Positions 2,991 through 41,627 of a stretch of DNA of 49,091 nucleotides are shown piece after piece. The translations under genes were made by a program, and so were the position numbers. Source of the stretch: an uncultured euryarchaeote (GTDB taxonomy: Archaea > Thermoplasmatota > Poseidoniia > Poseidoniales > Poseidoniaceae). How positions within the stretch are numbered: the stretch's first letter is position 1; each line of letters starts with the position of its first letter. Below the pieces are notes generated by a model. It made no database searches. It had not been told where the DNA came from and saw nothing but the letters and a program-made list of their open reading frames with translations. The stretch is taken from the NCBI GenBank assembly GCA_937897365.1, contig CALCOP010000126.1:1-49091 (forward strand). The letters run 5' to 3'.

Positions 2991-3884
2991 TTACAGAAGT
3001 TCAAACGGTGAGGAAGCCAGCTTTTTAGCGGCATCAGCACCGTCGATACAAGCGAGATAATCTCCGTTCGGAATTGGCTGGGTGGAATCCTGTTCCATGA
3101 TTTTTCCGTTCAAATCAATAATTTGGTATCCAGAATCAAACAAAATTTGGAAAACTTCTTCGGAAGTTCGTTGAATGGATTTCAAAATAGTTTCTTGCAG
3201 TTCAAATAAAATATAATCAATCTTTTTCTTCTTCAAAATCGAAGATGAGCCCGACAGGACATCTGATTCAAATCCTTCGACATCAATTTTGAGAAAATGA
3301 ATTCGTTCAAGTTTGAGTTCTTCAAAAACAGCATCCATCGTTCGAACATCAACGAGAATCTTATCCACAGTTGGGCTGTTATCTACATCGCCAAGCGAGT
3401 GATGACCGTGAAAACTTTTGACGTATAATTCCATTTGAGTTTCTTCTTTTCCAAGTGCATAGCGATGAAGTGTGATGTTGGGGTTATTTCTTAATTCCAT
3501 CTGAGATTGAATGGTAGAAATGTTCACTGGGTGGGGTTCGAAAGCGTGGACTTGGTGACAGCGTTCAGCAAACCAGTGACAAACAACTCCCATGTTCGCT
3601 CCAACATCAAAGACGATACTTTTCTTATCAATCAGGGGTTGAATCCTATCAAGCCAAGGTACAGCATCACAGGCTTTGCCTGACATCAAACTCCAGTCAA
3701 GGCGTTCACCATAATTCAAAATTCGCATAAGACCACGTTCCTTGTCGTGTACGAACAGTTGTAAATCACTGCTTGCTATTTTTCGATCAAGCATTGGGTA
3801 GAAAACAAAACGATCAAACAGTCGCTTGGGGGTTCGAAGAGCGTAAAGGAACGCTCGAACGGGGAAACTTCGATTTTTTCTCAT
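2991..3884 (-). CDS. FkbM-family SAM-dependent methyltransferase
   Basis: Motifs FDVGANMGVVCHWFAERCHQVHAFEP and FLKIDVEGFESDVLSG are typical of the FkbM family. The ORF track begins at TTG 3893. The first ATG is at 3884 and sits about 20 nt downstream of a TATA-like box. Confidence 0.75.
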   Translation of the reverse strand: MRKNRSFPVRAFLYALRTPKRLFDRFVFYPMLDRKIASSDLQLFVHDKERGLMRILNYGERLDWSLMSGKACDAVPWLDRIQPLIDKKSIVFDVGANMGVVCHWFAERCHQVHAFEPHPVNISTIQSQMELRNNPNITLHRYALGKEETQMELYVKSFHGHHSLGDVDNSPTVDKILVDVRTMDAVFEELKLERIHFLKIDVEGFESDVLSGSSSILKKKKIDYILFELQETILKSIQRTSEEVFQILFDSGYQIIDLNGKIMEQDSTQPIPNGDYLACIDGADAAKKLASSPFELL

Positions 3885-3904
3885 CTTTGACAAAAAAATC
3901 CCCC

Positions 3905-3989: not shown

Positions 3990-4598
3990 TCAAAATGTGG
4001 ATTGCCATTCTTCCAGATCTTGGGAAGCAGCCCAATCTTCATCGGTCATCTTGCCCCGAACCTTGAGAACTTCACGAGCGAGAAGCCAATAAACCAAAGC
4101 AAGGGAACGACGACCTTTGTTATTTGCAGGAAGCGCAACATCGACGTTACGGAGATTGTTATTTGCGTCAACAATACCCACGATTGGCAAACCTGAGTTC
4201 ACTGCTTCACGTAGTGCTTGTTGGTCAGCGGCTGGATCGGTTACGAACAAAACATCAGGCTCGACATAAGAACGAAGAACAGGGTTTGTCAGTGAGCCGG
4301 GAATGAATCTTCCAACAGCCGCATTCGCTCCAATGGCTTCTGAGAAGAGCCGAGCCGGGCGTTGGCCGTATTGACGAGCAGAAACAACCATGATTCGAGC
4401 AGGGTCATACTTGTTGAGGAACTCGGCAATTGAGCGTATTCGAGAGTCAGTCATGTTAACATCCAAGAGATACAATCCATCTTCACGAACACGTTCGATG
4501 AAGCGTGCCATATCGGCACTCTTTTGCTGAGTACCAATGTTGACAGCATTCTCTTCATAGGATTCGAAGGGCAAGAGTAAGTTCATTTCCTCGGACAT
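3990..4598 (-). CDS. rps2: 30S ribosomal protein uS2 (archaeal type)
   Basis: 202 aa. IGTQQKSADMARFIERVREDGLYLLDVNMTDSRI...VSARQYGQRPA...GRFIPGSLTNP...DPAADQQALREA...IPIVGIVDAN matches archaeal S2. ATG at 4598 is preceded by GAGG. Confidence 0.9.
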   Translation of the reverse strand: MSEEMNLLLPFESYEENAVNIGTQQKSADMARFIERVREDGLYLLDVNMTDSRIRSIAEFLNKYDPARIMVVSARQYGQRPARLFSEAIGANAAVGRFIPGSLTNPVLRSYVEPDVLFVTDPAADQQALREAVNSGLPIVGIVDANNNLRNVDVALPANNKGRRSLALVYWLLAREVLKVRGKMTDEDWAASQDLEEWQSTF

Positions 4599-4640: not shown

Positions 4641-4757
4641 CCGCTTCGTAGAGGAGCGGAATGATTTTTTCTTGATGCTCGAGGTGATTTAGGCGGGCTT
4701 ACCATCAAAGAACTCAAAACCTGAGGCATGCCTGTAGACGCATTGGGGGGGTGAGAT

Positions 4758-5936
4758 ATGGGGTTGGTTTCAAGTGGGGATGCGTTACTGAACGCCACTC
4801 TTTCAGAAGACGGGACCTGGCGTGATGCACAGGGAATCGCACTTCCAGTGAGTGCAAGTGATTTGGAACGCTACGAATATTGTCCACTGTCTTGGTCGTT
4901 ATCACGGCAAGGTAATTCTGGCCAGGGTGAAGCCATCGTCGCAGGAATCAAAAGACATGCTCTCATTCATGAAAAAATGAAAGATTTTCAATTCATTCAA
5001 ACGCAAATGCGCCGTTCAGTTACAATTTGGACATGGTGGTTCTCAGTTATCATCGCCTTGACCGTCGATGCCATCGCTTTCAGTTTCATAGATGAAGTGA
5101 CAACACCGTTACTCATGGCCCGATATCTCGCAATGTGGGGGGTCGCAATGCTTATTGTAGGTTCCATAGCGATTTCAGTACCTTGGCGTTCATGGGTCGG
5201 TTTACGAGAAACAATTCCTCGACAAAAAACTAAATTTTTATCTCAAAACAATGATTTTACTCACTTCTGGGAACCGAAAGGCTTCATTGGAGGATGGTTT
5301 GAGGCTGGGCGAGTTGAAGCAAGTCTACTTTTTGGTTCGATCGTACTCGGATTACACGCAATCGCTCTTGCGGGCGCCGATGATCGCAGTCAAGCAACAT
5401 TCATTCTTTTCATCACTGCGATGGCCTGGACATTGGCAGCCTCATGGCAACTCCAACGAATGTTATTATCCGAAAATGCCCTTAGTTCGATGAAAAGTGA
5501 CGTCGGCTTCGAGGCTGAAGATGAAGTGGCTTATTCCGATGGAGATACGACTTCTGACCTCCTGGTTGATCAAGAACTTGGTCTGCGTGGAAAACCTGAC
5601 CAGATTGTCATTGTCGATGGAGAGTTTATTCCGGTCGAACAAAAGACGGGGCGGGTTCCCAAAAACCCTCATCCATCACATCGAATGCAATTACTCGCCT
5701 ATCTTCATCTTGTTGAAAAAAATACCAACAAAAGCTCGCCATACGGTGTCCTACGTTACGGAGAAAAAGACCTTCACCAAATACCCTGGAACGATGTTGC
5801 AAAACAGGAACTGAGAGGTGCTGTTCAAGAAATTCAACGCTTAATGGTCCAAGGAGGGGCATCTCGAAATCATCATCGCCCAGGCAAGTGCAGAAGCTGT
5901 TCACGACTGTATGCCTGCAGTGACTCTCTTTCTTGA
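4758..5936 (+). CDS. Cas4-family (DUF83) PD-(D/E)XK Fe-S nuclease with a four-helix transmembrane insertion
   Basis: N-terminal LERYEYCPLSW (Cys42) and GIKRHALIHE. Four hydrophobic helices at about aa 88-231. Nuclease core GKPDQIVIV (D281), PVEQKTG (E294, K296) and QLLAY (QxxxY). C-terminal CRSCSRLYAC (C378, C381, C387). GGGGGGTGA sits just upstream of the ATG. Confidence 0.7.
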   Translation: MGLVSSGDALLNATLSEDGTWRDAQGIALPVSASDLERYEYCPLSWSLSRQGNSGQGEAIVAGIKRHALIHEKMKDFQFIQTQMRRSVTIWTWWFSVIIALTVDAIAFSFIDEVTTPLLMARYLAMWGVAMLIVGSIAISVPWRSWVGLRETIPRQKTKFLSQNNDFTHFWEPKGFIGGWFEAGRVEASLLFGSIVLGLHAIALAGADDRSQATFILFITAMAWTLAASWQLQRMLLSENALSSMKSDVGFEAEDEVAYSDGDTTSDLLVDQELGLRGKPDQIVIVDGEFIPVEQKTGRVPKNPHPSHRMQLLAYLHLVEKNTNKSSPYGVLRYGEKDLHQIPWNDVAKQELRGAVQEIQRLMVQGGASRNHHRPGKCRSCSRLYACSDSLS

Positions 5937-6488
5937 TTAGATACAGTCGGTTTCAAGAGGATATTGGATACACGTACGCTTGAGTGTAATATCGATTCGA
6001 ACGAAATCTTGGACGGCAGCGGTTGCGGTTCCTGCACCGCGAGCAGAAATAATGAGATTCCAATTCCCAGTTTCAAATCCTGAAGTATCGGGTAGAATTT
6101 CATTCGTGATAGGGTCTTGTGAAACACACTCATCAATTTCCCAAACCGTCTGTCCACTGGGAGTCTGTAACTCAGCACGGACGTATCGAGTGAAGTTCTC
6201 AAAACAACCCACAGTCTCTGAAGCAGTAAATCTCGTGTGCCGCCACATGATTAATTCCGAAACGGTTTCGTCCACATAAAAAGTGGTTGAGTTTTCGTAT
6301 ACTTCCCATTCAGTTGGGTTGGTGAATACTTTTTCCAGCTTGAGAACGATTGTCTCAGACTTGGGGTCAGGCTGGCCGCGTAAATGTTCAATGCCCTCAC
6401 GGGCTTGAAGAAGCCCCAAACATCCAGGGCTACTGCTGAGAAGAAAAATCATTACCATGAGGATTGGCATACACCAACTCTTCTTCAT
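5937..6488 (-). CDS. Small secreted protein or lipoprotein, unknown function
   Basis: Probable start at MKKSWCMPILMVMIFLLSSSPGC (signal peptide with a Cys). A beta-rich mature part with several Cys follows. The ORF track extends to 6530. Its stop abuts the stop of the Cas4-like gene. Confidence 0.5.
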   Translation of the reverse strand: MKKSWCMPILMVMIFLLSSSPGCLGLLQAREGIEHLRGQPDPKSETIVLKLEKVFTNPTEWEVYENSTTFYVDETVSELIMWRHTRFTASETVGCFENFTRYVRAELQTPSGQTVWEIDECVSQDPITNEILPDTSGFETGNWNLIISARGAGTATAAVQDFVRIDITLKRTCIQYPLETDCI

Positions 6489-6633
6489 GGACAGGCTAAG
6501 TCTCACCCACATATCAATCCAATGTTGCATGATACAAGGGTTTGATACCTTAGAGTCTTAGCGGTGTTTGTCCGAATGACGCTAGCGGTTGCCGAGCAAA
6601 AGCAATGACGAACCCTATGAAAGCCGACGGACA

Positions 6634-9456
6634 TCATTCAAACTTCGCGCCACAGGTTCCACATTCAGTGGCATCAACTGCAAGATCTGCACCACAGGCA
6701 CCGCATTCTGCAACTTCCGGTTTGGGTTCGGATTCAGCAGATTTTCGACGTGCGCTTCGACGGCGCGTTGGTTTGGATTTACCCGGTGTTAATTCGTCAA
6801 TAACGGCAATCGGTGAATCATCGTCCATGACAGTGAAATCAGAGGTTGTTTCAGAAACTTCATTTCCTGCAAAGGCGGAATCGGTGAGTTGCATACCGAC
6901 ATTGACTTTATCGCCAGGCATGATTCCTTCCTCACCAGTAATTTCAAACAATCTTCCTCGGATGTCTGCATCGCTTGCTGAAAGTTCTTTTCCGTCATCC
7001 TTGTGGGCGACAATTTCCCCTTTCGATGCAAGAATTGCATCGATGTCATTGGTCTCATCACCAAGGTCCTTCATGCTCTTTAGCGTTGTAGTAACCGAGT
7101 TTTGATAGGCTTCAAGTTCTTCTTCCGTCATGTCTTCACGGAGCAATTCATCAGCGTTCCTTCGATCGTAGGCTGCTTCGACTTCAGCCTCAGCACTCTC
7201 GATGTTTTCGTCCCATTCCTCTTCCAACTGGTCCTCATCATAGCCAAATTCTTGAACAGCTTCAGCAAAGTTTTCTGTGCCAGTGACAATAGCATCTTCG
7301 TCAATTTCTTCGGGAAGAGCGACAATCTGCTTCTCCACCTTTTCCTTGCGTTGGCGTTGTTCAAAGAATGAGGATACATCTTGTTCAGCCCCACAATATA
7401 CGCAATTATCAAGGAGGTCTGGAATTGATTCACCGCATTCTTCACACTCGTGGAATTGGTTTCGAGCCTTCTTCAAATTGAATGAACAATGTGGGCAGCG
7501 GTTTTCATCACCTTCAAGTTCCCCATCACAGGAAGGACAATACTCAAAGATGTCTCGTTCTACATCATCTTCAGATTCTCTCGTAAGGTATATTGAAACG
7601 GCTAAAACAGCAATGAGGAGAGCTGAACCTATACCGATGAGCGTGAAAGTTCCAAGCTCGGAATTTGATTTCAGGTCTTCAAGGTCTGAATCGCTCATTA
7701 CCGTACTGAAGGTTCGTGTGAAGGTTTGAGAAATGGTAGAATCAGAAGGAACAAGAAGAATAACAGTTGACGGTGCTGATGCATTAAATTGGCATTCAAG
7801 ACTGACCTTGTCTCCGCGGTTAACCACTTCAGCATTGATCGTTGCAAGTATGTCGCCGGCTCCGTCCACGCAATCATACGTCAAATCTCCAGTTTCGACG
7901 CTTGTTAAATCAATTTTAAGCGTATAGGTTTCACCTTGCGTCATTGGTAAAACAACAGCGGAACCATCTGAATCAGTTACCTCAAGCGTCGAAACAGCCC
8001 AAGAAAGTCGTAATTCTGCCTCAACTGATACCATGCCCGAAGCGACATTGTTGCTCGGATCTGCATCCCAACTGTTTGCGGATGCAACCCATTGCGCCTC
8101 AAAAGTTGCATCATGAGCACCGACAACAGTCGTTAAATCGACGCTCCAAGTATAATCATCGCCAGAATCGAGATAGATTATTGGAGATGTTGATTCAACT
8201 CCTTCCCAGGTATAATAGAGCCTTCCTGAAACTTCAATATCACCGGTGTTGAGCATACTCACACTCCATTCAACCGAATCACCAGAGTTTACCGAAGGAG
8301 ACGATGCAATGGCATTTGAGTCCACCAATACATCTGGCACAGGGAATTTTGACAAGCTGCTTGAAATGATATCATTTGAGGTTGATTCTTGGATGAAATC
8401 TGCCGTTCCGAAAGGGTCAATATTCGCTGAAATTGTGTGCGTACCCACCGGCAATGCATCCAATTGAGTTGAGGTGAGAACGTGGCTCCATAACGCTTCA
8501 GCATATCCACTTCCTGTAAGATTAACAGTGAAAGGTGCGGTTGAAACCACTCCACCTGATGGATTTTGTATTTGCAACTGAAGTGGAACTGCCGAGAAAC
8601 CAGAGCCATTTGTTTGCGCAATCCTTCCAGAGACGACCCAAGGTCCCTCAAGAGCGCCTTCTTCGATGCTCACATCCAATTCTCCAACGTGGAAGAAATC
8701 GACTCGAGTGTCAACGGTAAAAGGAACCTCAACCACTTTGTTCATCTCTGAGGACTCATGGACAGCATTTTGATAGTCAGGTGTAACCATCAATGAATGA
8801 GAACCGCTTGCAGGTGCCGTAAAGGTCGTGTTCACCCATTCGGAGGAACCTGCGGCAATAGGCGGTGTTGGAATGTCCAAATCATTGGAGCCAGGAAGAT
8901 CAATGTGGAGTGTACTCGCGCCCGCAGGCTCACTTCCAAGGTTTCTGACCAAGGAGGAGAGATTGACTGTGTCGCCTGAATGGATGCCTGATGAAGGAGA
9001 CAAATGAGTCTCAGTCACCTTGAGGTTAGGCAAGCCAGTTACGGTAAAGTCAACATAAAATTGGGCTTCATTTCCTGAATTGCGGGGATATTCAAAAGTA
9101 ATGTGAACTTCGTGCTCACCTTCCACAAGACCCTGCCACACGGTCGAAACTTCAGCGGTTTCACCTGCATAGATATCAACGGTAGAGGATTCGAGTAATT
9201 TGTTTGGCCCAATTCCATTCCGATAGAAGGCATATTCAACATCAATAGCATCACTGTTCGCGCTGTTGAATAATTGGAGGTTAATGGTGACGGAACCTCC
9301 CGCCTCAGGGTTGGATGGCTGAAGAGCTACCGTGCTCTCAGAGGCTTGAATAGGACCACTCTCTTCAGCGGAATTTGTCATCGGTACCGTCGCGATACAG
9401 AGGAGGAGAATCACAATTGTCGGCTTCCACGCGCTCGCCATGTAGGTATTCGACAT
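6634..9456 (-). CDS. Large cell-surface protein: signal peptide, CARDB-like repeats, one TM helix, 316-aa cytoplasmic tail with three zinc ribbons
   Basis: Start taken at MSNTYMASAWKPTIVILLLCIATVPMTNSAEE (ATG 9456). CARDB-like modules include GGSVTINLQLFNSANSDAIDVEYAFY and SGDTVNLSSLVRNLGSEPAG. TM helix FTLIGIGSALLIAVLAVSIYL. Tail motifs CPSC..CPHC, CEEC..CVYC and CGAC..CGTC. Confidence 0.8.
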   Translation of the reverse strand: MSNTYMASAWKPTIVILLLCIATVPMTNSAEESGPIQASESTVALQPSNPEAGGSVTINLQLFNSANSDAIDVEYAFYRNGIGPNKLLESSTVDIYAGETAEVSTVWQGLVEGEHEVHITFEYPRNSGNEAQFYVDFTVTGLPNLKVTETHLSPSSGIHSGDTVNLSSLVRNLGSEPAGASTLHIDLPGSNDLDIPTPPIAAGSSEWVNTTFTAPASGSHSLMVTPDYQNAVHESSEMNKVVEVPFTVDTRVDFFHVGELDVSIEEGALEGPWVVSGRIAQTNGSGFSAVPLQLQIQNPSGGVVSTAPFTVNLTGSGYAEALWSHVLTSTQLDALPVGTHTISANIDPFGTADFIQESTSNDIISSSLSKFPVPDVLVDSNAIASSPSVNSGDSVEWSVSMLNTGDIEVSGRLYYTWEGVESTSPIIYLDSGDDYTWSVDLTTVVGAHDATFEAQWVASANSWDADPSNNVASGMVSVEAELRLSWAVSTLEVTDSDGSAVVLPMTQGETYTLKIDLTSVETGDLTYDCVDGAGDILATINAEVVNRGDKVSLECQFNASAPSTVILLVPSDSTISQTFTRTFSTVMSDSDLEDLKSNSELGTFTLIGIGSALLIAVLAVSIYLTRESEDDVERDIFEYCPSCDGELEGDENRCPHCSFNLKKARNQFHECEECGESIPDLLDNCVYCGAEQDVSSFFEQRQRKEKVEKQIVALPEEIDEDAIVTGTENFAEAVQEFGYDEDQLEEEWDENIESAEAEVEAAYDRRNADELLREDMTEEELEAYQNSVTTTLKSMKDLGDETNDIDAILASKGEIVAHKDDGKELSASDADIRGRLFEITGEEGIMPGDKVNVGMQLTDSAFAGNEVSETTSDFTVMDDDSPIAVIDELTPGKSKPTRRRSARRKSAESEPKPEVAECGACGADLAVDATECGTCGAKFE

Positions 9457-9635
9457 CTTGTAAAGCACTTGAACCCATCTCCACATGACACGAATTATTA
9501 GCCTCAAGGAGATGTTTTCATCCATTCCACAACTCAACTTTGAGGCAAATCGCCGTAGCTTCATCTTGGAAATATTCAACGAAAAGATAGAGATGAAGGG
9601 GAGCATTGAAGGATAACCGCACCCGTCATGTCTTC

Positions 9636-17389: not shown

Positions 17390-19681
17390 TCAAGCCACCC
17401 CCCAAATGAGTAAGAAGAGTGCAAGAGTTCCAACGGCAACCATGAGAATGTAATCTCGAGCCGAACCAGTTGTCATCGAGCGAACGATGGTCGAGAGGGA
17501 TTGCGAACCGCTTTCAATTGCTTTGATTGTGCCATCGATGACTTCTGCATCAGTTTCTGCAACTTTATTGGAAAAGCCTGCAACGATGTTGATCATTGCT
17601 TTGTCGTAGTATTCATCGATGTAAAGTCGATTCTCAAGAGCAGTGGCTAATGTTGATTCTCGAAGTGCAGTGTTATCGAAATGGAAACGATCGTTGAACC
17701 ATGCGCTGAGTGCGATAATGGGTCGCATCCATGGCTTGGCTTCTTCACCTTCTGCGAGTTTACCGCCGTAAAGAGCCATGGCAAGTCCTGGACCGACAAT
17801 TGCACCCATGAAGATGGCAATGTAGGTGAGGATGAAGAAGAAAATATCTGAGTTTGCAAAGGCGTGGTCCATTTCATAGATGATGCCATCAAGTAAGTTC
17901 CTTTCTGAAAGGAAACTGTATTCGGTATCCGATGCCCAGTGGGTAAAGCCCATTCCAGCAAAGATGATTGATGAGAGTGTGACAAAGGTGAGAATAAACA
18001 GCGGCGTCTTAATCCAAGTATTGGTTGGTCCGACGTGTGCAGCAACCTCATTGTTTGGCTTTCCTGCAAAGGTCTTGAACCACATTCTTGACATGTAAAA
18101 GCCAGTCATTGCAGCACCGATGAGAACGCACATAGCGGGGAGAAGGAAGCGGGGGTCATTTTGGGCAACTCGCCAAGCGTTGGCAATGATACCTTCTTTG
18201 GACCAGAATCCACCGATGAGAGGCAATCCCATAATGGAAGCAGAACCAACCAGCATTGCAGTAGCGGTGATCGGCATTTTCGATGCAAGGCCTCCCATAT
18301 TTTCCATAGACTGCGCATCGAAGTGGTCATCGTGGTGATCATCATGGTCATCGTGATGGTCATCGCCGTGGTCGTCATGATGGTCATCATGGTGATGCAG
18401 GTGGTGATGAGCGTGGTGGACTTCGTGAATAACAGAACCACTCGCCATGAACAGCATTCCTTTGGCCATAGCGTGATTAAACAAATGGAACAGTGCAGCA
18501 CCGAAAGCGACAATGACAATGTAATGGTCCTTGTCATTATGATGCCAGTCAAGGGTATTGGCGAGATACATAGCGCAACCCAAGCCGGTGAAAATGTAGG
18601 CGAGTTGACTCATGGTCGAATATGCTAACACTTTCTTCAGATCCATCTGGACAAAAGCAATCGCAGCAGCCATGACCGCAGTAATACCTCCTATGGAGGC
18701 AATGACGAAAGCGAGGTCATCTAAGTCTCCGTGTAAGGATTCCGCACCGAAGAATGGGAACATGCGGGCTACCAGATACAATCCAGCGTTGACCATGGTC
18801 GCAGCGTGAATCAAAGCTGAGACTGGTGTTGGGCCTTCCATTGCGTCTGGCAACCAAACGTGGAGTGGGAATTGAGCAGATTTACCAACCGCACCAATGA
18901 ACATCAAACCAAGTGCCCATTGGAGCGTTCCAGCAGATTCTGCCGCAACTGCATCAATATTTTCTGTTGCAAAGACAACAGCGTAGTCAAGAGAACCGAA
19001 CAGGTCCCAAAGCATAACCAATCCAATCATCAAAAAGACGTCACCAATACGTGTGGTCAGGAATGCTTTCTTTGCAGCGGAGGCTGCACTTGGGCGTTCG
19101 TAATAGAATCCAATCAGCAGATAGGAACAAAGCCCCATAATTTCCCAGAAGATGAAGAGCCAGAGGAACGAATCAGCCAGAACCATTCCGAGCATTCCTG
19201 AACAGAACAAAACAAACTCTGCATAGAATCGATGATTACGATTGTCGTTGATTGGGTCAGTATTCATGTAACCAATACTGAACGTGTTGATGAGCAGACA
19301 CAAGAAGGAGGCAACAAAGAGCAACATTACTGTGATGTGATCAACGTATATTCCAAAACCAAGTGAAACGGGTTCAATCATACTGCCACCGTTCCATACG
19401 CCTGTATTGACCCAAGCGATTTGTTCGAAGATTTGGTCTACTCCGGAATTACCTTTCAAAAACTCAGAAATGAGTAAAAGAGAGAGTACGAGGCTGGCCG
19501 CCATTACAGGTAGGGCAATGAGGCCACCTTCCTTGAGGTTCTTTTTCCAAAACGGGTGCCCATTGAAGATATGTCCAAGGAATAAAATGACCGCAAAGGC
19601 CATCATTGGTAGCAGAATAATCAGTGGCGCGAATTGCATCCATTCTGAATGAACAAGAGGTGCTGATTCTTTACTTGCCAT
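17390..19681 (-). CDS. nuoL: NADH-quinone oxidoreductase subunit L, with a His/Asp-rich loop insertion
   Basis: NuoL/ND5 motifs FIFWEIMGLCSYLLIGF, GKSAQFPLHVWLPDAMEGPTPVSALIHAATMV and AYSTMSQLAY. 763 aa including the 35-aa H/D tract. Confidence 0.9.
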   Translation of the reverse strand: MASKESAPLVHSEWMQFAPLIILLPMMAFAVILFLGHIFNGHPFWKKNLKEGGLIALPVMAASLVLSLLLISEFLKGNSGVDQIFEQIAWVNTGVWNGGSMIEPVSLGFGIYVDHITVMLLFVASFLCLLINTFSIGYMNTDPINDNRNHRFYAEFVLFCSGMLGMVLADSFLWLFIFWEIMGLCSYLLIGFYYERPSAASAAKKAFLTTRIGDVFLMIGLVMLWDLFGSLDYAVVFATENIDAVAAESAGTLQWALGLMFIGAVGKSAQFPLHVWLPDAMEGPTPVSALIHAATMVNAGLYLVARMFPFFGAESLHGDLDDLAFVIASIGGITAVMAAAIAFVQMDLKKVLAYSTMSQLAYIFTGLGCAMYLANTLDWHHNDKDHYIVIVAFGAALFHLFNHAMAKGMLFMASGSVIHEVHHAHHHLHHHDDHHDDHGDDHHDDHDDHHDDHFDAQSMENMGGLASKMPITATAMLVGSASIMGLPLIGGFWSKEGIIANAWRVAQNDPRFLLPAMCVLIGAAMTGFYMSRMWFKTFAGKPNNEVAAHVGPTNTWIKTPLFILTFVTLSSIIFAGMGFTHWASDTEYSFLSERNLLDGIIYEMDHAFANSDIFFFILTYIAIFMGAIVGPGLAMALYGGKLAEGEEAKPWMRPIIALSAWFNDRFHFDNTALRESTLATALENRLYIDEYYDKAMINIVAGFSNKVAETDAEVIDGTIKAIESGSQSLSTIVRSMTTGSARDYILMVAVGTLALFLLIWGVA

Positions 19682-26069: not shown

Positions 26070-28997
26070 TCAGGAACGGCGTTGGCCGAAGATACTTCGA
26101 GAGGCAAAAACAATCAGTAAAATCACAGCCAAACCTGCTAACCCGTTATACATGGTTTCCTCTTGAATTCCAAGACCGAAGAGTCCTGCAGATACATCAC
26201 CGTTGACCGTAAATTCAATGTTTACTCGGTCCACGACTCCGGTTTCAACTGGCTCTGCAGAGAGTGTGAATTTGTATGTATCAGCAACTTCGGCACCAAC
26301 CGGGGTTCGAATTGTAACCTGAATCTGCAAAGATTGGCCAACTTCGACATCGCAGATAAATTCTGTAATATCTTGTTCGCAGGAATCTTGGCCATTTGGC
26401 TCGTCCAGAACGACGTTCCAACCACGGAAACTTTCCGAGGTGAAGACGAGAACTTCCGCATCGACATTGCCCGTGTTCGTAAGGTTCACAATAAACTCTT
26501 CTTCATTCGAATATTCAACATCAAATTCAGTGGCTGTTTGTTCACGGTCAAATTCAAACTCGTAGATGATTTGAACGTCAAGAGAAATATCAAAATGGCC
26601 AGATCTATTTGCAGCATTCTTCGTGCTCAATACGACCAATTCGAGAAGGCCACCATCACCCGTTGATGCACTTGGATTGACAGTGATTTCAAGTTCAAAA
26701 TACAATTCAAAAGGACGAGCGTCATAACCGCCGGCACAATATCCGAGTGCACACATCTGTGTTTCAGCGGAATCCTTTGTAGCTCCGATCACAGGTTCTC
26801 CGGAGGCGTCAACGAGGAATCGGCTGTTGTTTTGATCCCAAATACCAAAACCAACTGGAACCGTGAACTCACCGTCGACTGTAAGGCCGTAGAGTGTTAT
26901 CTCTCGAGTCGCAAGACCTTCAAGTCCTGAGATATCAAACACCGCTTGGTCCTTTCCATCTCCAGTATTTTGCACCCAGAAGCCGTATGTCTGAGTGCCA
27001 GATGGTGGAAGGAGTGCCGAGCCTGAGCGTTGGTCCAAACCCCCATCAACTAAGCGCACGTCCATCGAAAATACGCGGTCTGATAAAATGGCGAGGAAGA
27101 CAAATTCTCGTTGGTTGTCAGGTAAACCGTCACCGTTTTCGTCGCCCGAATTTGAGGTGTCATCTTTGTTGATTATGCGTACTGTCAGCCTGCTGGACGA
27201 GAGCTCTTCCTCGCCATCAATACTGACGACCATGAAGACTTGAGTTGAACTCTGCGGTGCAATGGCAATTCCTTGTGAAGAGGAAATGATGTTACCATTG
27301 CTGTCTTCACAGTAGACATCCCACTCTGGTGAAGCAGTCTGGTCTTGCTCAATACATCGATAATTATCTTCAATGTTTCCAGTATTTTGAATCGTTATTG
27401 GGAACTTCACAAGAGATCCTGAACGACCTGTTTGTTCGAGTGCAGTTGCTTGCGCTTCAATCCCATGAATCGCCTTTACCGTAACGGTGAGGGTGACTTC
27501 AGCATATGCGACTCCACCTCCAGCAGGTAAGACTGAAAAAGCGATTGATATTTGCTCTGTAGCCAGTGCATTACTTGGAACATTGACGACAAATGCTACA
27601 TTTTCACTCTTTTCCGAACCGTGCTTGGAGCCAACGGAAACGGTGGTTGAGTCGAGTTGCACACTCCAACCCGAAGGTGGTGCTGAAGCGGAAATTCGAA
27701 GGTTATCTACACCGTTCCCTTGGTTTGTAACCGTGAGGGTCGCAGTGCCATTCGAGCCTGGCTCGATGTTTGAGAGCATCGAAGTTGAAAGCGAGAGGCT
27801 TGCCCCGAAAGACTGACCTACAATGACTCTCAGTTCTTGAGAACATTTGACCGTGTTTCCGTCTTTCGCTTGGATTTGAATCACGGATTCATCCCCAGCA
27901 GTGACAGAATCATCGGGAGTAACTACAATATCGAATGATTTCGTACCGTCTCCGTCAGAATACGGTAAGATTCCAGAGGATGCTCCGTCATAGTTCACCC
28001 ATCCCGAACGGCTACCTGCTTTCGCCATTGAAACCGACCAGTCACTGTTTCCTGTATTCGAGAGAGTTGCGGTTAAACTGGCTTCATCATCAGGGTCAAC
28101 AGTCATACTGGTTTTCGATAAAACCATAGAGCATTCATGTAATTCTGGCACGGTTAAATCAAAATCTTCGACATCCGATGCTTCTTGGGAAGGGTCACTG
28201 GTAACCGTTCCAGTAATCTCCCAACAATATTTGTTCGCCTCTTGGCCTGCGGGGACTTCGACTGAGACGGTCACCGTTTCGGTTTCGTTTTGGTCCAGCG
28301 ATACTGTCTCCTCATCCAAGTCGACAGTGAGGTCGTCAGCATTTTGACAACCATTACCTCCTGTCTCATCAACAGAAAGAGCGATTGTTTCATTGGTTTG
28401 GCCCGTATTCTCAACGATGATGTCATACTCAATGACCGATTCACCAGCCCATTGCTGGCTGCGTTGGGATTCTGACGCCATAGACAAGTCAACACCAAAT
28501 ACTGCAGAGCCGGAACCATCGCCAGCTGTTGTTGTCACAATTTTCGTTTCTGTAGCGGGTTGACCAGCAACTTCTGGTGGTGTCGGCGCTTCAGTAGCCT
28601 GTGCGGTAATGGTCGTGTCGCAACTTCCTTCAGCGGTTTGTGTCAACGTTACGTTCATCGTTGTTTCACCGTAATCATTGGATTCAATAACGCCCGGAAT
28701 TTGCTGGATATTTGATGAATATGCGCCACATTCTTGCGTAGCTTCTTCGCTTGAAGAAAGTGAAATAGTGACTGCAGTAGGACCATTGTTGTATATTCTG
28801 ACCGTGTATTCTCCCGCTTCACCAGGGTTCACTTCAAGCCCGTTTGAAGGCGATGTTTGAATCGAAATACTTGCGTCACGACCGCCATCTGCACCGACCG
28901 TCGGTGTAAACATAGGTACAACCGAGAGAATTAGGAGACCGACAAGGAAGATTGCACGTTTTGAGGCGTGCGCGGTGTTTATTTCTCGGGGGTCCAT
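26070..28997 (-). CDS. Large surface protein with NEW3/CARDB-like repeats and a C-terminal TM anchor
   Basis: ATG 28997 gives MDPREINTAHASKRAIFLVGLLILSVVPMFTPTVGADG (signal). Repeated modules of the type NPGEAGEYTVRIYNNGPTAVTISL, PGSNGTATLTVTNQGNGVDNLRISASAPPSGWSV and GSLVKFPITIQNTGNIEDNY. C-terminus GLAGLAVILLIVFASRSIFGQRRS. Confidence 0.75.
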   Translation of the reverse strand: MDPREINTAHASKRAIFLVGLLILSVVPMFTPTVGADGGRDASISIQTSPSNGLEVNPGEAGEYTVRIYNNGPTAVTISLSSSEEATQECGAYSSNIQQIPGVIESNDYGETTMNVTLTQTAEGSCDTTITAQATEAPTPPEVAGQPATETKIVTTTAGDGSGSAVFGVDLSMASESQRSQQWAGESVIEYDIIVENTGQTNETIALSVDETGGNGCQNADDLTVDLDEETVSLDQNETETVTVSVEVPAGQEANKYCWEITGTVTSDPSQEASDVEDFDLTVPELHECSMVLSKTSMTVDPDDEASLTATLSNTGNSDWSVSMAKAGSRSGWVNYDGASSGILPYSDGDGTKSFDIVVTPDDSVTAGDESVIQIQAKDGNTVKCSQELRVIVGQSFGASLSLSTSMLSNIEPGSNGTATLTVTNQGNGVDNLRISASAPPSGWSVQLDSTTVSVGSKHGSEKSENVAFVVNVPSNALATEQISIAFSVLPAGGGVAYAEVTLTVTVKAIHGIEAQATALEQTGRSGSLVKFPITIQNTGNIEDNYRCIEQDQTASPEWDVYCEDSNGNIISSSQGIAIAPQSSTQVFMVVSIDGEEELSSSRLTVRIINKDDTSNSGDENGDGLPDNQREFVFLAILSDRVFSMDVRLVDGGLDQRSGSALLPPSGTQTYGFWVQNTGDGKDQAVFDISGLEGLATREITLYGLTVDGEFTVPVGFGIWDQNNSRFLVDASGEPVIGATKDSAETQMCALGYCAGGYDARPFELYFELEITVNPSASTGDGGLLELVVLSTKNAANRSGHFDISLDVQIIYEFEFDREQTATEFDVEYSNEEEFIVNLTNTGNVDAEVLVFTSESFRGWNVVLDEPNGQDSCEQDITEFICDVEVGQSLQIQVTIRTPVGAEVADTYKFTLSAEPVETGVVDRVNIEFTVNGDVSAGLFGLGIQEETMYNGLAGLAVILLIVFASRSIFGQRRS

Positions 28998-29070
28998 GAC
29001 CCCCGGTGGCGGCCTTACTATCAAAAGACTACCCTTCGATGACTCAAGGAAATCAAACAAGGTTATGAAA

Positions 29071-32000
29071 TCATGCCTCTACGAATGAAGACACATCAGT
29101 TTGACAATTCATGCATTGCGTTAGCGCATTTGAAGAACAAGATGGGTGGTCGGCACGATGGTAACGGGCTCCACAACCAGGGCATCCAAGCATTCCTCCC
29201 GTAATTTCACCTCGACAAGACCAACACAAAGGCCCTTTTTTCGCTGTTTGCTCAAGAGGTGCAATCGGTTTGAGAGAAGGAAGCGCATTGATGCGAGCGG
29301 GGATGTTTGGCATCGGAAGTGGAGGCCGTGTAGCCGATTTCGGTTTTCTTTGAGTGAAAATTACTGTTCCGATCAAAAGGGCGACAAGAACGACGCCCAC
29401 GAGGATACTACCTATCGGTAATGATTGTCCTGAAGTCCCGATGGGTTCTCCCTCCGAGGTGACTTGTAATTCAATCGAGGAATTGATCATGCCATCAGCG
29501 CCTTGTAATCCGAGAGAAAGAATGCCATCACCAGGCAGGTCAGCCCGGACGAGGAGTCGGATTTTCATCGATTCTCCAGGTTCCAAATTCGCAATGTCAT
29601 TTCCGTCGATTTCAGCTTCCCAATTTTTAGATTCTTCAAGGACTAATTTATGCGAAAAGGCAACATTTCCTGCGTTCAGTAAAGTGACTTCCAATTCTTC
29701 TTGAAGGCCAGTGGAAAACGGCGTGTTACGTTCTTGAACCCATGCGGACTCAATCACAGTAGCGACTCGAAGACCAATGTTTTCAGTGTATTCTACACCT
29801 CCACCGTCGAGTTTGAGCACGAAAGAGGGTTCACTCATCGGAGCCATTCCAGTGGATATCAGAATCGTGCACGTTACCGGTGAGACATCGCCGTATCCAA
29901 TCGGCTCAATTGCTGAACAGTCACCAAACAAACCGTTACTCAAAGAGACGGAGGCGGTTGGCTGCCATTCTACATCGGCTTCATTTCCAATCAGCCATGT
30001 AAACATGAGTGGTACACCAGCCGGATGAGAGCCTTCGCCAAACGGCGTATCCCATGATGTTCCGTCTTGCAGTGCGAGGTTCACAAATCCAAGAGTAGGT
30101 TGGGCAAGTGCCTCGACGTTAAATTGCCCTACCCATGTGATTCGTTCAGTTCCACTATCAAGATGAAGTTTCACTTCTCCGGAAGTTCCACTTCCGTCAC
30201 CCGAGATTCCAAACAAGAGATTCTTCGAAGTAGACCACGGAAGGTCAAACGGTTCTATTTCCGAAGTGACTGACCAGCCTGATGGAAGTTCAAATGAGGG
30301 TGTAAAGGACAAGTCAACATTACCCCTGTGTTCCAACGAAAAGAGCATGCTGAAGAATGAATCGGGCCGAAGGACACCGAGGTTCGTCTCTAAATCAACG
30401 TCAACCTGTTTGACCGTTTCAATTTTGATTGGAATATCAAAAATCCACGTTTCGGTGATCTCAGTCTGGGAAATCGCAGTTAAGCGCACCATTCGTTCAG
30501 CACCTGCTGCAGTCATGACCTGAGGGGGTGTGAAAGACATACCAATAACGCGATGACTGTCTTTGACAATCAGACCTGTCGAACCCGAACTTGCGCCGGG
30601 CACACTGGATAAGGTGTCGAAACCAGCATCCCAGCCAGCAGGAGCTTCGAGGAATAAATCATAGCCGATGTCAGCATTTCCGATATTGAAGAGGCGAATG
30701 TCAATACTTGTTGGATCAGTTGGAGACACCGGTACGATTTGATAATCATACTCAAGACGGAGATTTGGAATGTCAGGTACTTCAAGATACAGCATGTAAG
30801 GATAAGAAACACCGTTATCGACATCAATACCAAGTAAATCGACACGATACAAACCGGGTAAAGGTGGAGTGGGGTGAACCAAAGTGACAACAATTTCAGC
30901 TGAATCTTGACCAGAGAGGGTGAAGTTTGATTCATTGGCTCCGACATACCATGATTCGGTCTGACCTGTATCTTCATTCATGACACTCTGAGTAAGCAAA
31001 CTGGCATTGGTAGATACCAACGCCGTATTGGTAAGCGTGAGGTTCCATGATGATGTCGACTGACTGGTGTTGAGCAAGACGAGCGATTGAGGTTCGGCAG
31101 AAAGTTTGACGCCTGGAGCCGTGACGTTCACCGAAATATCGTGACGATTGTTGTTTTCAAGTATCTCCTCGATTTCATCGCTTGGATCTATAATGAAAGA
31201 AACGGTTGACTGCCCTGCAATTTGAGGAGTCCAATACCAGATTTGAGTTTTTGATGAACCGGCGCCAAGATCGATATTCTTACTATCGATTTCAACGCCA
31301 TCCACTTCTAAAACAATATCGAAATAATCTGCACGAACATTGCCCACATTGAACACCTTTGAAGTCAATTGCAGTTGATCTCCAACCTGAGGGATCGTCA
31401 CCGACATGGAAAATTCATCTTCGAGTATTGTTGGGTCTGGGCGCAAATCGTTCACGCCATGACCCATAACTGCAATGGCAAACGGCTGAGCTTTGCTACC
31501 TCCGTGATACGCATCTTTCACTTTCACCGTCCATACTCCAAGTTCCGCATTATCGACCAACACGACTTCGACATTGTTGATGCCGTCAGCACTTCCACCT
31601 GTTGTCGAACGACCGTTTGCAAAATCGTTTCCAAGATATATCTCGCCACTTGGGGTTGTCACCTCGATATCGAGATTATTGACTAACTGTGTACTGGAAA
31701 ACGGTGAGCCTCGTTCGTCAGACCATGCCAGTACTGTTTTGAATCCTGAATTCGCTTGAGAGATGTTAAACGTGTAACTCTTCGAATTACCAGTTCCTGA
31801 GAGTACCGAGCGGTCATCAACCCAAATGCCTTGACCCGAAGTTGGTGCAAGCGTATTTCGTAAATCGACCCTTCCCCAGCCTTCATCATCATTGGGGATA
31901 TTACGAGAACCAATGTCTTGGGCACCGAGAATCAACAGGGCCTTTACCAGCGCTCCTTGGGGTGCAGGTCGTTGTGCAATTTCTTCGAGGTATTCACGAA

Positions 32001-33615: not shown

Positions 33616-33676
33616 ATTTGGTCCTCCCTTCGCCCCGTTTTATCGCTATGGGTATTTTGGGTAGTGAAAAAGCAAT

Positions 33677-34342: not shown

Positions 34343-34346
34343 TCTA

Positions 34347-39050: not shown

Positions 39051-39077
39051 TATGAGAACCCATCCCCGTTATGCGTG

Positions 39078-39114: not shown

Positions 39115-39119
39115 AATAA

Positions 39120-41582: not shown

Positions 41583-41627
41583 GCACTGCTGTAAGTCGTT
41601 AACCACTTCAATGATGTGGCCGTTTGC

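What the first reader, a model, noticed from the sequence alone, without database searches (positions are those of the whole stretch)
4758..5936. Orphan Cas4-family Fe-S nuclease interrupted by four transmembrane helices
All Cas4/DUF83 hallmarks are present. They are the N-terminal Cys (YEYCPLSW), GxxxH, the catalytic D...ExK (GKPDQIV, PVEQK), QxxxY (QLLAY) and the C-terminal CxxCx5C (CRSCSRLYAC). About 145 residues containing four strongly hydrophobic helices (aa ~88-231, nt 5019-5450) are inserted between the first Cys/His region and the nuclease core. An even number of helices keeps both halves on the same side of the membrane, so the 4-Cys cluster could still assemble. The result would be a membrane-tethered DNA exonuclease. 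There is no CRISPR array, cas1/cas2 or other cas gene in the 49-kb window. Candidate roles include degradation of incoming DNA at the membrane (defence or uptake) or envelope-associated repair. Whether this architecture is already catalogued cannot be determined from here.
Basis: partly seen in the sequence, partly recalled or inferred. Interest (0 to 1): 0.65.

Follow-up and report, generated by a model that had tools for sequence, protein, structure and literature searches.

The report
Membrane-embedded solo Cas4 nuclease of Poseidoniales
This gene encodes a Cas4-type iron-sulfur DNA nuclease split by four membrane-spanning helices; it is a conserved core gene of abundant marine Group II archaea, unlinked to CRISPR, and belongs to a wider, apparently undescribed family of membrane-anchored Cas4 nucleases.

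Summary
ORF 4758-5936 (+) encodes 392 aa with every Cas4 hallmark (C42, H67, D281, E294/K296, Q311/Y315, C378/C381/C387). Four hydrophobic helices lie between the N-terminal Cys/His segment and the nuclease core. Pfam, NCBIfam, PADLOC, PDB profile searches and an AlphaFold model all point to Cas4/Dna2.

It is not a one-off. More than 1,000 homologs exist, and all 80 retrieved species loci carry it, all Poseidoniales. In 78 it lies divergent from ribosomal protein S2, in a housekeeping neighbourhood with no cas genes.

More distant relatives, named only from uncultured Thermoplasmatota MAGs, keep the same split. They carry 2, 4 or 8 helices, built from a repeated two-helix hairpin. Related ~170-aa forms have a single N-terminal anchor. 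Charge distribution puts both nuclease halves in the cytoplasm.

Best reading: a vertically inherited solo Cas4 nuclease fixed to the inner face of the membrane. It probably acts on DNA ends at the membrane, while confinement spares the chromosome. The biological role (barrier to incoming DNA, genome maintenance or DNA salvage) is inferred, not shown.

No description of this architecture was found in the searchable literature. I rate it a new variant of a known kind, of moderately high interest.

The parts
4750..4754 (+). Shine-Dalgarno-like GGTGA, 3 nt upstream of the ATG
   Evidence: Read directly from the sequence. Complementarity to the archaeal 16S 3' end is from general knowledge.
4758..5936 (+). 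Whole gene: 392-aa membrane-embedded solo Cas4-family nuclease, stop codon included
   Evidence: GC content is 0.465 against 0.466 for the window.
4758..4847 (+). aa 1-30: lineage-specific N-terminal extension, variable at its start, with the conserved motif DG.WRD..G
   Evidence: Alignment A1. Conservation 0.53. Modelled as small beta strands with pLDDT about 90 for aa 11-30.
4848..5018 (+). aa 31-87: N-terminal piece of the Cas4 fold. It holds the first cluster cysteine C42 (nt 4881-4883) and motif I His67 (nt 4956-4958). Its helix runs straight on into TM1.
   Evidence: Y41, C42, W46, G63 and H67 are invariant in the broad alignment A2. The segment aligns to Cas4 8d3l residues 3-63 and to 4r5q. 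pLDDT is 85-95.
5019..5087 (+). aa 88-110: TM helix 1 (WTWWF motif; D104 invariant within Poseidoniales)
   Evidence: Hydropathy 1.92. Continuous helix 58-110 in the model. Alignment A1.
5088..5111 (+). aa 111-118: short acidic outer loop
   Evidence: Odd-numbered loops average about 0.9 K+R residues. A Poseidoniaceae variant, P0122, carries about 85 extra residues here.
5112..5180 (+). aa 119-141: TM helix 2
   Evidence: Hydropathy 2.02. Helix 117-140 in the model.
5181..5309 (+). aa 142-184: basic cytoplasmic loop with the invariant motifs PWR and F.GGW.E.G; modelled with low confidence
   Evidence: Alignment A1 invariants. K+R-rich even-numbered loop. pLDDT below 50 for aa 150-183.
5310..5378 (+). 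aa 185-207: TM helix 3 (H200 invariant within Poseidoniales)
   Evidence: Hydropathy 1.91. Helix 185-205 in the model. Alignment A1.
5379..5396 (+). aa 208-213: short outer loop
5397..5465 (+). aa 214-236: TM helix 4 (AMxWTLAASxQLQ). It is as conserved as the catalytic core and continues as a helix to aa 249.
   Evidence: Hydropathy 1.42. Helix 210-249 in the model. Conservation 0.85 against 0.82 for the core. W224 is nearly invariant family-wide.
5466..5561 (+). aa 237-268: linker helix plus the first core strand (AYSD motif)
5562..5933 (+). aa 269-392: PD-(D/E)XK nuclease core with the C-terminal Fe-S module. Key residues: D281 (nt 5598-5600), E294 (5637-5639), K296 (5643-5645), Q311 (5688-5690), Y315 (5700-5702), C378 (5889-5891), C381 (5898-5900), C387 (5916-5918).
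   Evidence: Pfam, NCBIfam and PADLOC matches fall on aa 252-389. D281, K296, Q311, C378, C381 and C387 are invariant in A2, and E294 and Y315 are nearly invariant. Foldseek matches to Cas4 and Dna2.
3990..4598 (-). Divergent neighbour: ribosomal protein S2. This is context, showing a stable core-genome position, and is not part of the element.
   Evidence: Pfam Ribosomal_S2 1.7e-19. Adjacent in 78 of 80 species loci and in the more distant locus L091.

Best explanation
The gene encodes a solo (non-CRISPR) Cas4-family PD-(D/E)XK nuclease with a predicted [4Fe-4S] cluster. A four-helix membrane module is inserted into its fold, between the motif-I helix (His67) and the first core strand.

Shown or directly supported:
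- All catalytic residues (H67, D281, E294, K296, Q311, Y315) and all four cluster cysteines (C42 plus C378/C381/C387) are conserved across the family.
- The predicted fold matches Cas4 and Dna2.
- The module is two copies of a two-helix hairpin. Relatives carry 1, 2 or 4 copies.
- Charge bias places the N-terminal segment, the long middle loop and the core on the cytoplasmic side.
- The gene is vertically inherited, sits in a fixed housekeeping position in Poseidoniales, and is absent from viral contigs.

Inferred mechanism:
- The two soluble pieces reassemble on the inner membrane face into one Fe-S nuclease.
- The helices of TM1 and TM4 run directly into the domain and hold it rigidly against the membrane.
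- Like other Cas4, AddB and Dna2 nucleases, it cuts or resects DNA in a metal-dependent way.
- Because it is fixed to the membrane, it meets only DNA that arrives there. That is most plausibly the linear ends of viral or other incoming DNA.
- The circular chromosome is kept out of reach of an otherwise dangerous nuclease.
- The strongly conserved membrane module probably adds oligomerisation or regulation beyond simple anchoring.

My confidence is about 0.85 for the molecular description and about 0.35-0.4 for the 'incoming DNA at the membrane' role.
For: Family and fold:
- Profile matches.
- AlphaFold2 model with pLDDT 78.4 and pTM 0.70.
- Top Foldseek hits are Dna2 5eax, type I-C Cas4 8d3l (TM 0.47-0.52 normalised to the target, rmsd about 3.5 A), Cas4-Cas1 7mi5, ACE1, MGME1 and Pcal_0546.
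- Catalytic and Cys residues are invariant in a 28-sequence alignment going down to 25% identity.

Membrane module:
- Hydropathy.
- Helix counts of 4 (230 proteins) and 8 (30 proteins) dominate the census.
- 2-TM forms and forms with a single N-terminal TM helix also exist.
- Hairpin 1 against hairpin 2 gives hhalign probability 99%, E 2.7e-18.
- TM4 is as conserved as the core.

Topology:
- Loops on the N/C side hold 3.3-10 K+R residues; the opposite loops hold about 0.9.
- One 8-TM member has two C-terminal TRAM nucleic-acid-binding domains.

Core-gene status:
- Present in 80 of 80 retrieved Poseidoniales species loci, and adjacent to rpS2 in 78.
- The same synteny is kept at 47% identity.
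- GC content equals that of the window.
- No relatives in IMG/VR viral contigs.
- No cas genes in the window or in 11 other loci.

Background from the literature:
- Solo-Cas4 genes evolve vertically and are enriched in lineages that lack CRISPR (PMC5704561).
- M. mazei Solo-Cas4 is a high-order oligomeric dsDNA nuclease, and its overexpression reduces growth (PMC12501428).
Against: - No biochemical, expression or phenotype data exist. No RNA run holding the gene was found.
- A fixed core-genome position next to ribosomal and other housekeeping genes is unusual for defence genes. It fits genome maintenance at least as well.
- A single helix would be enough for tethering, so the polytopic module hints at a function not captured here.
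- TM4 of this particular protein is only moderately hydrophobic.
- TIGR00372 scores just below its equivalog cut-off.
- Whether Poseidoniales genomes carry CRISPR-Cas elsewhere was not tested.
Confidence: 0.5

Rival explanations
1. Housekeeping genome maintenance. The nuclease processes chromosomal DNA ends or intermediates at membrane-associated sites (break resection, replication or segregation intermediates, removal of aberrant structures), acting as a constitutive repair enzyme rather than a barrier to foreign DNA.
For: - It is found in every retrieved Poseidoniales locus, with strict synteny beside rpS2, Dus, RIO kinase and eIF1A.
- In other lineages its neighbours are gyrase, MetRS, GlmS and RNase HII.
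- It is absent from viral contigs.
- Solo-cas4 genes evolve like ordinary cellular genes (PMC5704561).
- The Cas4 fold is shared with the repair nucleases AddB, Dna2, Exo5 and MGME1.
- A CDIN1-like TPD gene lies directly upstream in one lineage. That TPD (PF14811) proteins are PD-(D/E)XK nucleases is from memory, not tested here.
Against: - No known archaeal repair pathway needs a polytopic membrane nuclease.
- No repair partners (helicase, Mre11/Rad50, HerA/NurA) lie next to it in any locus examined.
- Confinement to the membrane would limit access to most chromosomal lesions.
Confidence: 0.25
2. DNA uptake or salvage. The enzyme degrades or processes DNA imported across the membrane, for nucleotides and phosphorus or for recombination. 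The membrane module may be part of the conduit.
For: - In two Thermoplasmata loci the gene directly follows, with a 4-nt gap, an 885-aa LTD-PLDc_2-PKD surface protein. This looks like an extracellular nuclease or phosphodiesterase with a C-terminal anchor.
- Large surface proteins flank the gene in several lineages, including this window.
- Poseidoniales are heterotrophs that use high-molecular-weight organic matter (PMC6336850 abstract).
Against: - The association with the PLD-like gene is seen in one lineage only.
- No recognisable DNA channel or competence genes lie nearby.
- The outer loops of this protein are only 6-8 residues long.
- The idea that the hairpins form a pore is pure speculation.
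Confidence: 0.1
3. It is simply the adaptation-module Cas4 of a CRISPR-Cas system located elsewhere in the genome.
For: Public annotations call it 'CRISPR-associated exonuclease Cas4'. The Cas4 profiles match.
Against: - No cas1, cas2 or arrays occur in the 49-kb window or in any of the 91 loci for which neighbours were listed or compared.
- Its position is fixed next to rpS2 across the order.
- The score is below the TIGR00372 equivalog cut-off.
- CRISPR-linked Cas4 moves with its adaptation module (PMC5704561). This gene does not.
- None of the solved CRISPR-linked Cas4 structures that matched (about 200-aa chains, or the Cas4-Cas1 fusion) has such a membrane insertion.
Confidence: 0.03
4. 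The nuclease domain acts on RNA, or serves mainly as an Fe-S redox or membrane-state sensor, rather than as a DNA nuclease.
For: One 8-TM relative carries two TRAM domains, which are typically RNA-binding. The family has its own invariant motifs, SH..Q and (H)RNH, near the cluster. In-membrane polar residues D104 and H200 are invariant in Poseidoniales.
Against: The full DNA-nuclease catalytic set is invariant. All characterised Cas4, AddB and Dna2 relatives cut DNA. The TRAM fusion is a single case.
Confidence: 0.07

Closest known systems
CRISPR-associated Cas4 (Pfam PF01930 / COG1468; structures 8D3L, 7MI4/7MI5, 4IC1 SSO0001, 4R5Q Pcal_0546)
   Same: It has the same PD-(D/E)XK core with His, Asp, ExK and QxxxY motifs, and the same arrangement of one N-terminal Cys plus a C-terminal CxxCx5C for a [4Fe-4S] cluster. 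Sequence profiles and the predicted fold both match.
   Different: About 150-200 residues carrying four TM helices are inserted between motif I and motif II. It has no cas1/cas2 neighbours and a fixed core-genome position. It has extra family-specific motifs (P..P..SH..Q, RNH..GKC). It scores just under the TIGR00372 equivalog cut-off.
Archaeal solo-Cas4 (Hudaiberdiev et al. 2017, PMC5704561; M. mazei Solo-Cas4, PMC12501428)
   Same: It is encoded away from CRISPR loci, is vertically inherited in order-level clades, and is under ordinary purifying selection. It is presumably a metal-dependent DNA nuclease with an Fe-S cluster.
   Different: Described solo-Cas4 proteins are soluble proteins of about 200 aa. 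The 2017 survey does not mention transmembrane segments. This lineage is an integral membrane protein with 2, 4 or 8 helices.
Fe-S nuclease domains of Dna2, AddB, Exo5, MGME1 and ACE1
   Same: The fold is shared, and so is the cluster-stapled architecture that links the N- and C-terminal elements. These proteins are among the top structural matches.
   Different: Those domains are parts of helicase-nuclease machines or are soluble enzymes. None of them is interrupted by membrane helices.
RmuC (PF02646), of which the window itself holds a copy at 43384-44673
   Same: It looks like a putative nuclease held at the membrane with its catalytic part in the cytoplasm, which makes it a functional analogy. 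The window's copy has a hydrophobic N-terminal segment. That RmuC is a PD-(D/E)XK-type nuclease is from general knowledge.
   Different: It has a single N-terminal anchor and a coiled coil, no Fe-S module and a different sub-family. It is an analogy only, not homology at the family level.
Membrane-embedded defence complexes such as Kiwa (KwaA, a four-helix membrane protein, plus KwaB; PMC11785009)
   Same: It shows the idea of a polytopic membrane sensor coupled to a DNA-directed effector at the site of phage entry (abstract seen).
   Different: No sequence relationship exists. PADLOC returned only Cas4-type and DruK-type nuclease hits. Here the sensor and the effector would be one polypeptide. 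This gene is a core gene, not a mobile defence island.

Membership tests
Cas4 family (Pfam PF01930 / PF12705 PD-(D/E)XK) | Profile score above the curated family threshold | tested here: met
   PF12705 scores 48.4 bits (cut-off 22) and PF01930 scores 37.3 bits (cut-off 22.7), both on aa 256-387. PADLOC Cas4 gives 5.4e-19.
Cas4 family (Pfam PF01930 / PF12705 PD-(D/E)XK) | Catalytic motifs: motif I His, motif II Asp, motif III ExK, and QxxxY | tested here: met
   H67, D281, E294/K296 and Q311/Y315 are present. They are invariant or nearly invariant in alignment A2 and align to the Cas4 structures 8d3l, 4r5q and 4ic1.
Cas4 family (Pfam PF01930 / PF12705 PD-(D/E)XK) | Four cysteines (one N-terminal plus CxxCx5C) able to bind a [4Fe-4S] cluster | tested here: inconclusive
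   C42, C378, C381 and C387 are present and invariant. C42 aligns with the cluster Cys of 8d3l and 4r5q. Cluster binding and Cys-Cys distances could not be measured.
Cas4 family (Pfam PF01930 / PF12705 PD-(D/E)XK) | Cas4 / RecB-like nuclease fold | tested here: met
   AlphaFold2 model with pLDDT 78.4 and pTM 0.70. Foldseek top hits are Dna2, Cas4 8d3l and 7mi5, ACE1, MGME1 and 4r5q, with E values from 8e-5 to 5e-3.
Cas4 family (Pfam PF01930 / PF12705 PD-(D/E)XK) | Metal-dependent DNA exo- or endonuclease activity | not testable with these tools
   This needs purified protein.
CRISPR-associated Cas4 proper (TIGR00372 equivalog; adaptation module) | Score at or above the equivalog cut-off | tested here: not met
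   62.6 bits against a cut-off of 65.
CRISPR-associated Cas4 proper (TIGR00372 equivalog; adaptation module) | Encoded next to cas1/cas2 or a CRISPR array | tested here: not met
   The window has no array and no Rfam match, and no cas families among the ORFs scanned. Neighbours are housekeeping genes in 80 Poseidoniales loci and in 11 further loci. The rest of the genome was not examined.
Solo-Cas4 as described by Hudaiberdiev et al. 2017 | Located outside CRISPR-cas loci, vertically inherited, in lineage-level clades | tested here: met
   Synteny is kept in 78 of 80 species and at 47% identity. Named relatives are all Poseidoniales or Thermoplasmatota. No relatives in viral contigs.
Solo-Cas4 as described by Hudaiberdiev et al. 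2017 | Soluble single-domain protein of about 200 aa | tested here: not met
   The protein is 392 aa with four TM helices inserted in the fold. The survey paper does not mention transmembrane segments.
Known anti-phage defence systems (PADLOC-DB) | Match to a defence-system protein other than generic Cas4, with the partner genes of that system nearby | tested here: not met
   Only Cas4 and Cas4-Cas1 models matched, plus weak hits to the DruK nuclease domain. No partner genes are present in the window.

The most novel reading that the evidence does not exclude
The hairpin module makes the enzyme assemble into a ring in the membrane, as soluble Cas4 and solo-Cas4 proteins form high-order oligomers. 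The ring then works as a membrane-integrated DNA gate in one of two ways. It either senses envelope perturbation or DNA entry and shreds injected viral DNA at the point of entry, or it forms part of a conduit that hands imported DNA directly to an Fe-S nuclease. The first case would be a CRISPR-independent innate immunity that has become a core gene in some of the ocean's most abundant archaea. Either way it would be a mechanism with no described counterpart.
Probability: 0.15. Interest if true: 0.85.

Novelty: new variant of a known kind. Interest (0 to 1): 0.6.

Why it matters
- Cas4 and solo-Cas4 nucleases occur in about 90% of archaeal genomes, yet the role of the solo forms is an open question (PMC5704561).
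- A sub-family that is built into the membrane gives a concrete, testable clue: the enzyme's site of action is the inner face of the membrane.
- The gene is present in every Poseidoniales species locus retrieved. These are uncultured archaea that are abundant in surface oceans and are infected by magroviruses. The gene therefore bears on how such cells handle foreign or damaged DNA.
- Splitting an Fe-S-stapled soluble fold with 2, 4 or 8 membrane helices is also an unusual example of domain insertion and repeat expansion.
- Public databases label these proteins 'CRISPR-associated Cas4', which is misleading for genomes where the gene has no link to CRISPR.

Tried and rejected
- A first AlphaFold run used only close Poseidoniales homologs and gave a poor model (pLDDT 58.9). 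It was replaced by a run with a broader alignment.
- I tested whether the convergent downstream 197-aa lipoprotein-like gene (5937-6530) is homologous to the lipoprotein-like gene found downstream of relatives in other Thermoplasmata. There is no signal (hhalign probability 1.4%). The 2-TM 'SFTPFEEEML' partner of those lineages is absent from the window and from the Poseidoniales loci.
- The internal repeat within the Poseidoniales protein itself is not detectable (hairpin 1 against hairpin 2, probability 0.3%). Only hairpin 2 still resembles the generic hairpin (probability 80-89%).
- No relatives were found in IMG/VR viral contigs.
- No RNA sequencing run holding the gene was found. The transcript tables of a Marine Group II metatranscriptome paper are truncated in the library and did not show the gene.
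- Five literature searches for a membrane-bound or transmembrane Cas4 found nothing relevant. The closest item is a Cas4-DEDD fusion in Mycoplasma, which is unrelated in architecture.
- Papers on Poseidoniales did not state whether the order has CRISPR-Cas. That point stays open.
- The reading that this is a CRISPR adaptation Cas4 was considered and rejected on genomic context and on the equivalog score.
Full report
**1. The observation**

The window holds an ORF at 4758-5936 on the + strand. It encodes 392 aa and starts at the first start codon after an in-frame stop. A GGTGA motif lies three bases upstream.

- YEYCPLSW at aa 39-46
- GIKRH at aa 63-67
- GKPDQIV at aa 278-284
- PVEQK at aa 292-296
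- QLLAY at aa 311-315
- CRSCSRLYAC at aa 378-387

A 19-residue Kyte-Doolittle scan gives four hydrophobic peaks at about aa 88-110, 119-141, 185-207 and 214-236. The fourth is weaker than the rest. The gene's G+C content (0.465) equals that of the window (0.466).

The window has no CRISPR-like tandem array, no tRNA and no Rfam match. The ORFs I scanned are housekeeping or surface proteins: Dus, ribosomal protein S2, a KH protein, RIO kinase, eIF1A, RmuC, a metallo-beta-lactamase fold, HEAT repeats, and CARDB/Ig surface proteins. The nuo-type operon and the other large surface proteins were judged from their translations only.

**2. Is it a Cas4?**

Pfam matches PDDEXK_1 (1.6e-12) and Cas_Cas4 (3.7e-9), both above their gathering scores, on aa 256-387. 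PADLOC Cas4 models reach 5.4e-19. NCBIfam TIGR00372 scores 62.6 bits, just under its equivalog cut-off of 65.

The N-terminal piece is too short to score alone. A profile of 28 family members aligns it to residues 3-63 of the type I-C Cas4 structure 8D3L, and aligns the C-terminal half to residues 102-202. The cluster cysteine and the motif-I histidine are in register. The single sequence shows the same split match to Pcal_0546, structure 4R5Q.

An AlphaFold2 model built on that broad alignment has pLDDT 78.4 and pTM 0.70, with confidence of 85-95 in the N-terminal piece and in most of the core. Its best Foldseek matches in the PDB are listed here:
- Dna2
- type I-C Cas4 (TM 0.47-0.52 normalised to the target, rmsd about 3.5 A)
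- the Cas4-Cas1 fusion
- ACE1
- MGME1
- Pcal_0546

In the model the motif-I helix runs without a break into TM1 (helix 58-110). TM4 continues as a helix to residue 249. The domain would therefore sit on a two-helix stalk close to the membrane. I could not read the coordinates, so the distance between the four cysteines is untested.

**3. It is a conserved family, not an oddity**

A word-indexed search found more than 1,000 homologs. The best 120 are full-length (mostly 390-400 aa) and 58-100% identical. Where they are named, they come from Poseidoniales, the Marine Group II archaea.

In one genome per GTDB species, 580 stretches encode a relative. The best 80 are all Poseidoniales. In 78 of them the gene lies divergent from ribosomal protein S2. 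In 78 it is followed by the same convergent small secreted-type protein. The same gene order persists in a homolog only 47% identical. The gene is thus a vertically inherited core gene in a stable, housekeeping-like position, not part of a defence island.

Within the order the membrane module is almost as conserved as the catalytic core. TM4 scores 0.85 against 0.82 for the core. It carries invariant residues, including polar ones inside the helices (D104, H200), and a cytoplasmic-loop motif F.GGW.E.G.

**4. The wider family**

An exhaustive profile search of 1.8 billion cluster representatives found 433 clusters at E<1e-10. The more distant full-length members keep the same plan: an N-terminal Cys/His segment, then membrane helices, then the Cas4 core ending in HRNH..GKC..CSRR..CPERL. 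They carry either four helices (about 325-365 aa) or eight (about 500-600 aa).

Among the full-length proteins fetched, 230 have four helices and 30 have eight. The few counts of 1, 3 or 7 are most simply explained by a weak helix missing the hydropathy threshold. Single-hairpin 2-TM forms of about 255-286 aa also exist.

The first and second hairpins of the 4-TM proteins are homologous to each other (hhalign probability 99%, E 2.7e-18). The module therefore grew by duplication of a two-helix unit of about 60 residues. In the Poseidoniales protein, hairpin 2 still resembles the generic unit (probability 80-89%). Hairpin 1 has diverged beyond recognition.

The same sub-family also includes other forms:
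- a soluble form of about 198 aa;
- many forms of about 170-180 aa with a single N-terminal helix and no N-terminal Cys segment. One of these is annotated from an Anaerolineaceae bacterium. In them a cysteine just after QxxxY may serve as the fourth ligand.

Where sources name an organism for the 4- and 8-TM forms, it is an uncultured Thermoplasmata/Thermoplasmatota MAG or a MAG with a broader euryarchaeal label. Across a 28-sequence alignment reaching 25% identity, these residues are invariant: Y41, C42, W46, G63, H67, D281, K296, Q311, C378, C381 and C387. E294 and Y315 are nearly invariant. The enzyme is therefore expected to be active.

**5. Topology**

Loops on the same side as the N- and C-terminal domains hold on average 3.3-10 Lys+Arg residues. 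The alternate loops hold about 0.9, in both the 4-TM and the 8-TM classes. By the positive-inside rule, the two nuclease pieces and the long middle loop are cytoplasmic. The outer loops of this protein are only 6-8 residues long.

Three further points fit this orientation:
- One 8-TM relative carries two C-terminal TRAM domains.
- A Poseidoniaceae variant tolerates an extra domain of about 85 residues in outer loop 1.
- From general knowledge, Fe-S clusters are assembled in the cytoplasm.

**6. Context in other lineages**

Eleven loci of distant members show no cas genes. Their positions are lineage-specific but stable, and they lie among housekeeping genes: gyrase, MetRS, GlmS, RNase HII and an AlaX-like protein.

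Some neighbours recur:
- An 885-aa LTD-PLDc_2-PKD surface protein lies directly upstream, with a 4-nt gap, in two loci.
- A TPD (PF14811) gene lies directly upstream in two others.
- Large proteins without Pfam domains lie upstream of two 8-TM forms.
- A convergent pair lies downstream in five loci (L083-L086, L088): a 2-TM protein plus a lipoprotein-like protein.

The Poseidoniales downstream gene is not detectably related to that pair. No relative of the family was found in IMG/VR viral contigs.

**7. How it most likely works**

Shown: this is a Cas4-fold protein with an intact catalytic set and an intact Cys set. It is split by an even number of membrane helices. Both halves are predicted to face the cytoplasm. 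It is inherited vertically as a core gene and is unlinked to CRISPR.

Inferred:
- The halves reassemble around a [4Fe-4S] cluster on the inner face of the membrane.
- The enzyme cuts or resects DNA in a metal-dependent way, like its relatives.
- Being fixed to the membrane limits its substrates to DNA that comes to the membrane.
- The most economical role is attack on, or processing of, linear DNA ends entering the cell (viral genomes or other foreign DNA).
- The circular chromosome is spared. This matters because M. mazei Solo-Cas4 is a high-order oligomeric dsDNA nuclease whose overexpression reduces growth (PMC12501428).

The conservation of the polytopic module argues that it does more than anchor the enzyme. 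Bacterial relatives manage with a single helix. The extra function could be oligomerisation, gating or sensing.

The main rival is a genome-maintenance role at the membrane, which the housekeeping context favours. DNA salvage or uptake is a weaker third option, suggested by the PLD-like neighbour in one lineage. A CRISPR-adaptation role is very unlikely.

**8. Comparison with what is known, and novelty**

The protein passes the domain-level tests for the Cas4 family. It fails the tests for CRISPR-associated Cas4 proper: the equivalog score and the cas neighbourhood. It fits the solo-Cas4 category of Hudaiberdiev et al. in location and inheritance. It does not fit in architecture, and that survey does not mention transmembrane segments.

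Five full-text searches found no description of a membrane-embedded Cas4. This is only as good as the open-access library searched. Pfam and NCBIfam have no model for the membrane module. Databases annotate these proteins as 'CRISPR-associated exonuclease Cas4' or 'Dna2/Cas4 domain-containing protein'.

I therefore rate it a new variant of a known kind, of moderately high interest. No expression data could be obtained. All functional statements await biochemistry.

Noticed in passing
window 43384-44673 (-): An RmuC-family protein (PF02646, 5.6e-79) with a hydrophobic N-terminal helix. It is a second putative nuclease that appears to be membrane-anchored in the same 49-kb stretch.
   Followed up: partly
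window 2991-3893 (-): An FkbM-type methyltransferase (PF05050, 2e-22) sits between Dus and rpS2. It is present at this position in only 7 of the 80 Poseidoniales species loci. It is a small variable insertion in an otherwise rigid syntenic block.
   Followed up: partly
window 18323-18427, inside ORF 17390-19681 (-): A tandem 12/21/24-nt repeat encodes a His/Asp-rich run (HHHLHHHDDHHDDHGDDHHDDHDDHHDDH) inside a NuoL-like membrane subunit of the NADH dehydrogenase-type operon.
   Followed up: no
window 6634-9606 (-) and 5937-6530 (-): A 990-aa protein has an extracellular CARDB domain, one TM helix, cytoplasmic double zinc ribbons and an acidic tail. Next to it is a 197-aa lipoprotein-like protein with no Pfam match. 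Both lie convergent to the Cas4 gene and are syntenic in 74-78 of 80 species.
   Followed up: partly
window 26070-41606 (-): A run of four giant predicted surface proteins (996, 1514, 1567 and 828 aa) is interrupted by a 255-aa ORF at 33677-34444. From its sequence, the 1514-aa protein looks like a subtilisin-type peptidase with a C-terminal zinc ribbon. Not scanned against Pfam.
   Followed up: no
L083 9734-10524, L084 8996-9792, L085 1204-2000, L086 8659-9440, L088 7996-8798: In non-Poseidoniales Thermoplasmata, the membrane Cas4 gene is followed by a conserved convergent pair. One is a 2-TM protein of about 110 aa ending in SFTPFEEEML.MR. The other is a lipoprotein-like protein of about 150 aa. 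Neither has a Pfam match.
   Followed up: partly
L084 5339-7996, L088 4339-6996; L081 7200-7976, L090 6201-6962: Lineage-specific upstream partners lie on the same strand. One is an 885-aa LTD-PLDc_2-PKD surface protein with a C-terminal anchor, at a 4-nt gap. The other is a TPD (PF14811) protein of about 255 aa, at a gap of 24-38 nt.
   Followed up: partly
proteins P0241, P0243, P0248-P0252, P0262, P0264, P0269: Cas4-core proteins of about 170-180 aa with a single N-terminal TM helix and no N-terminal Cys segment. A Cys right after QxxxY ('AYC') may replace the missing ligand. One is annotated from an Anaerolineaceae bacterium. This suggests membrane anchoring recurs in this sub-family, beyond archaea.
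   Followed up: partly
proteins P0217 and P0122: Two architectural variants. P0217 is an 8-TM form with two C-terminal TRAM domains. P0122 is a Poseidoniaceae 4-TM form with an extra Cys-containing segment of about 85 residues in the first outer loop.
   Followed up: partly
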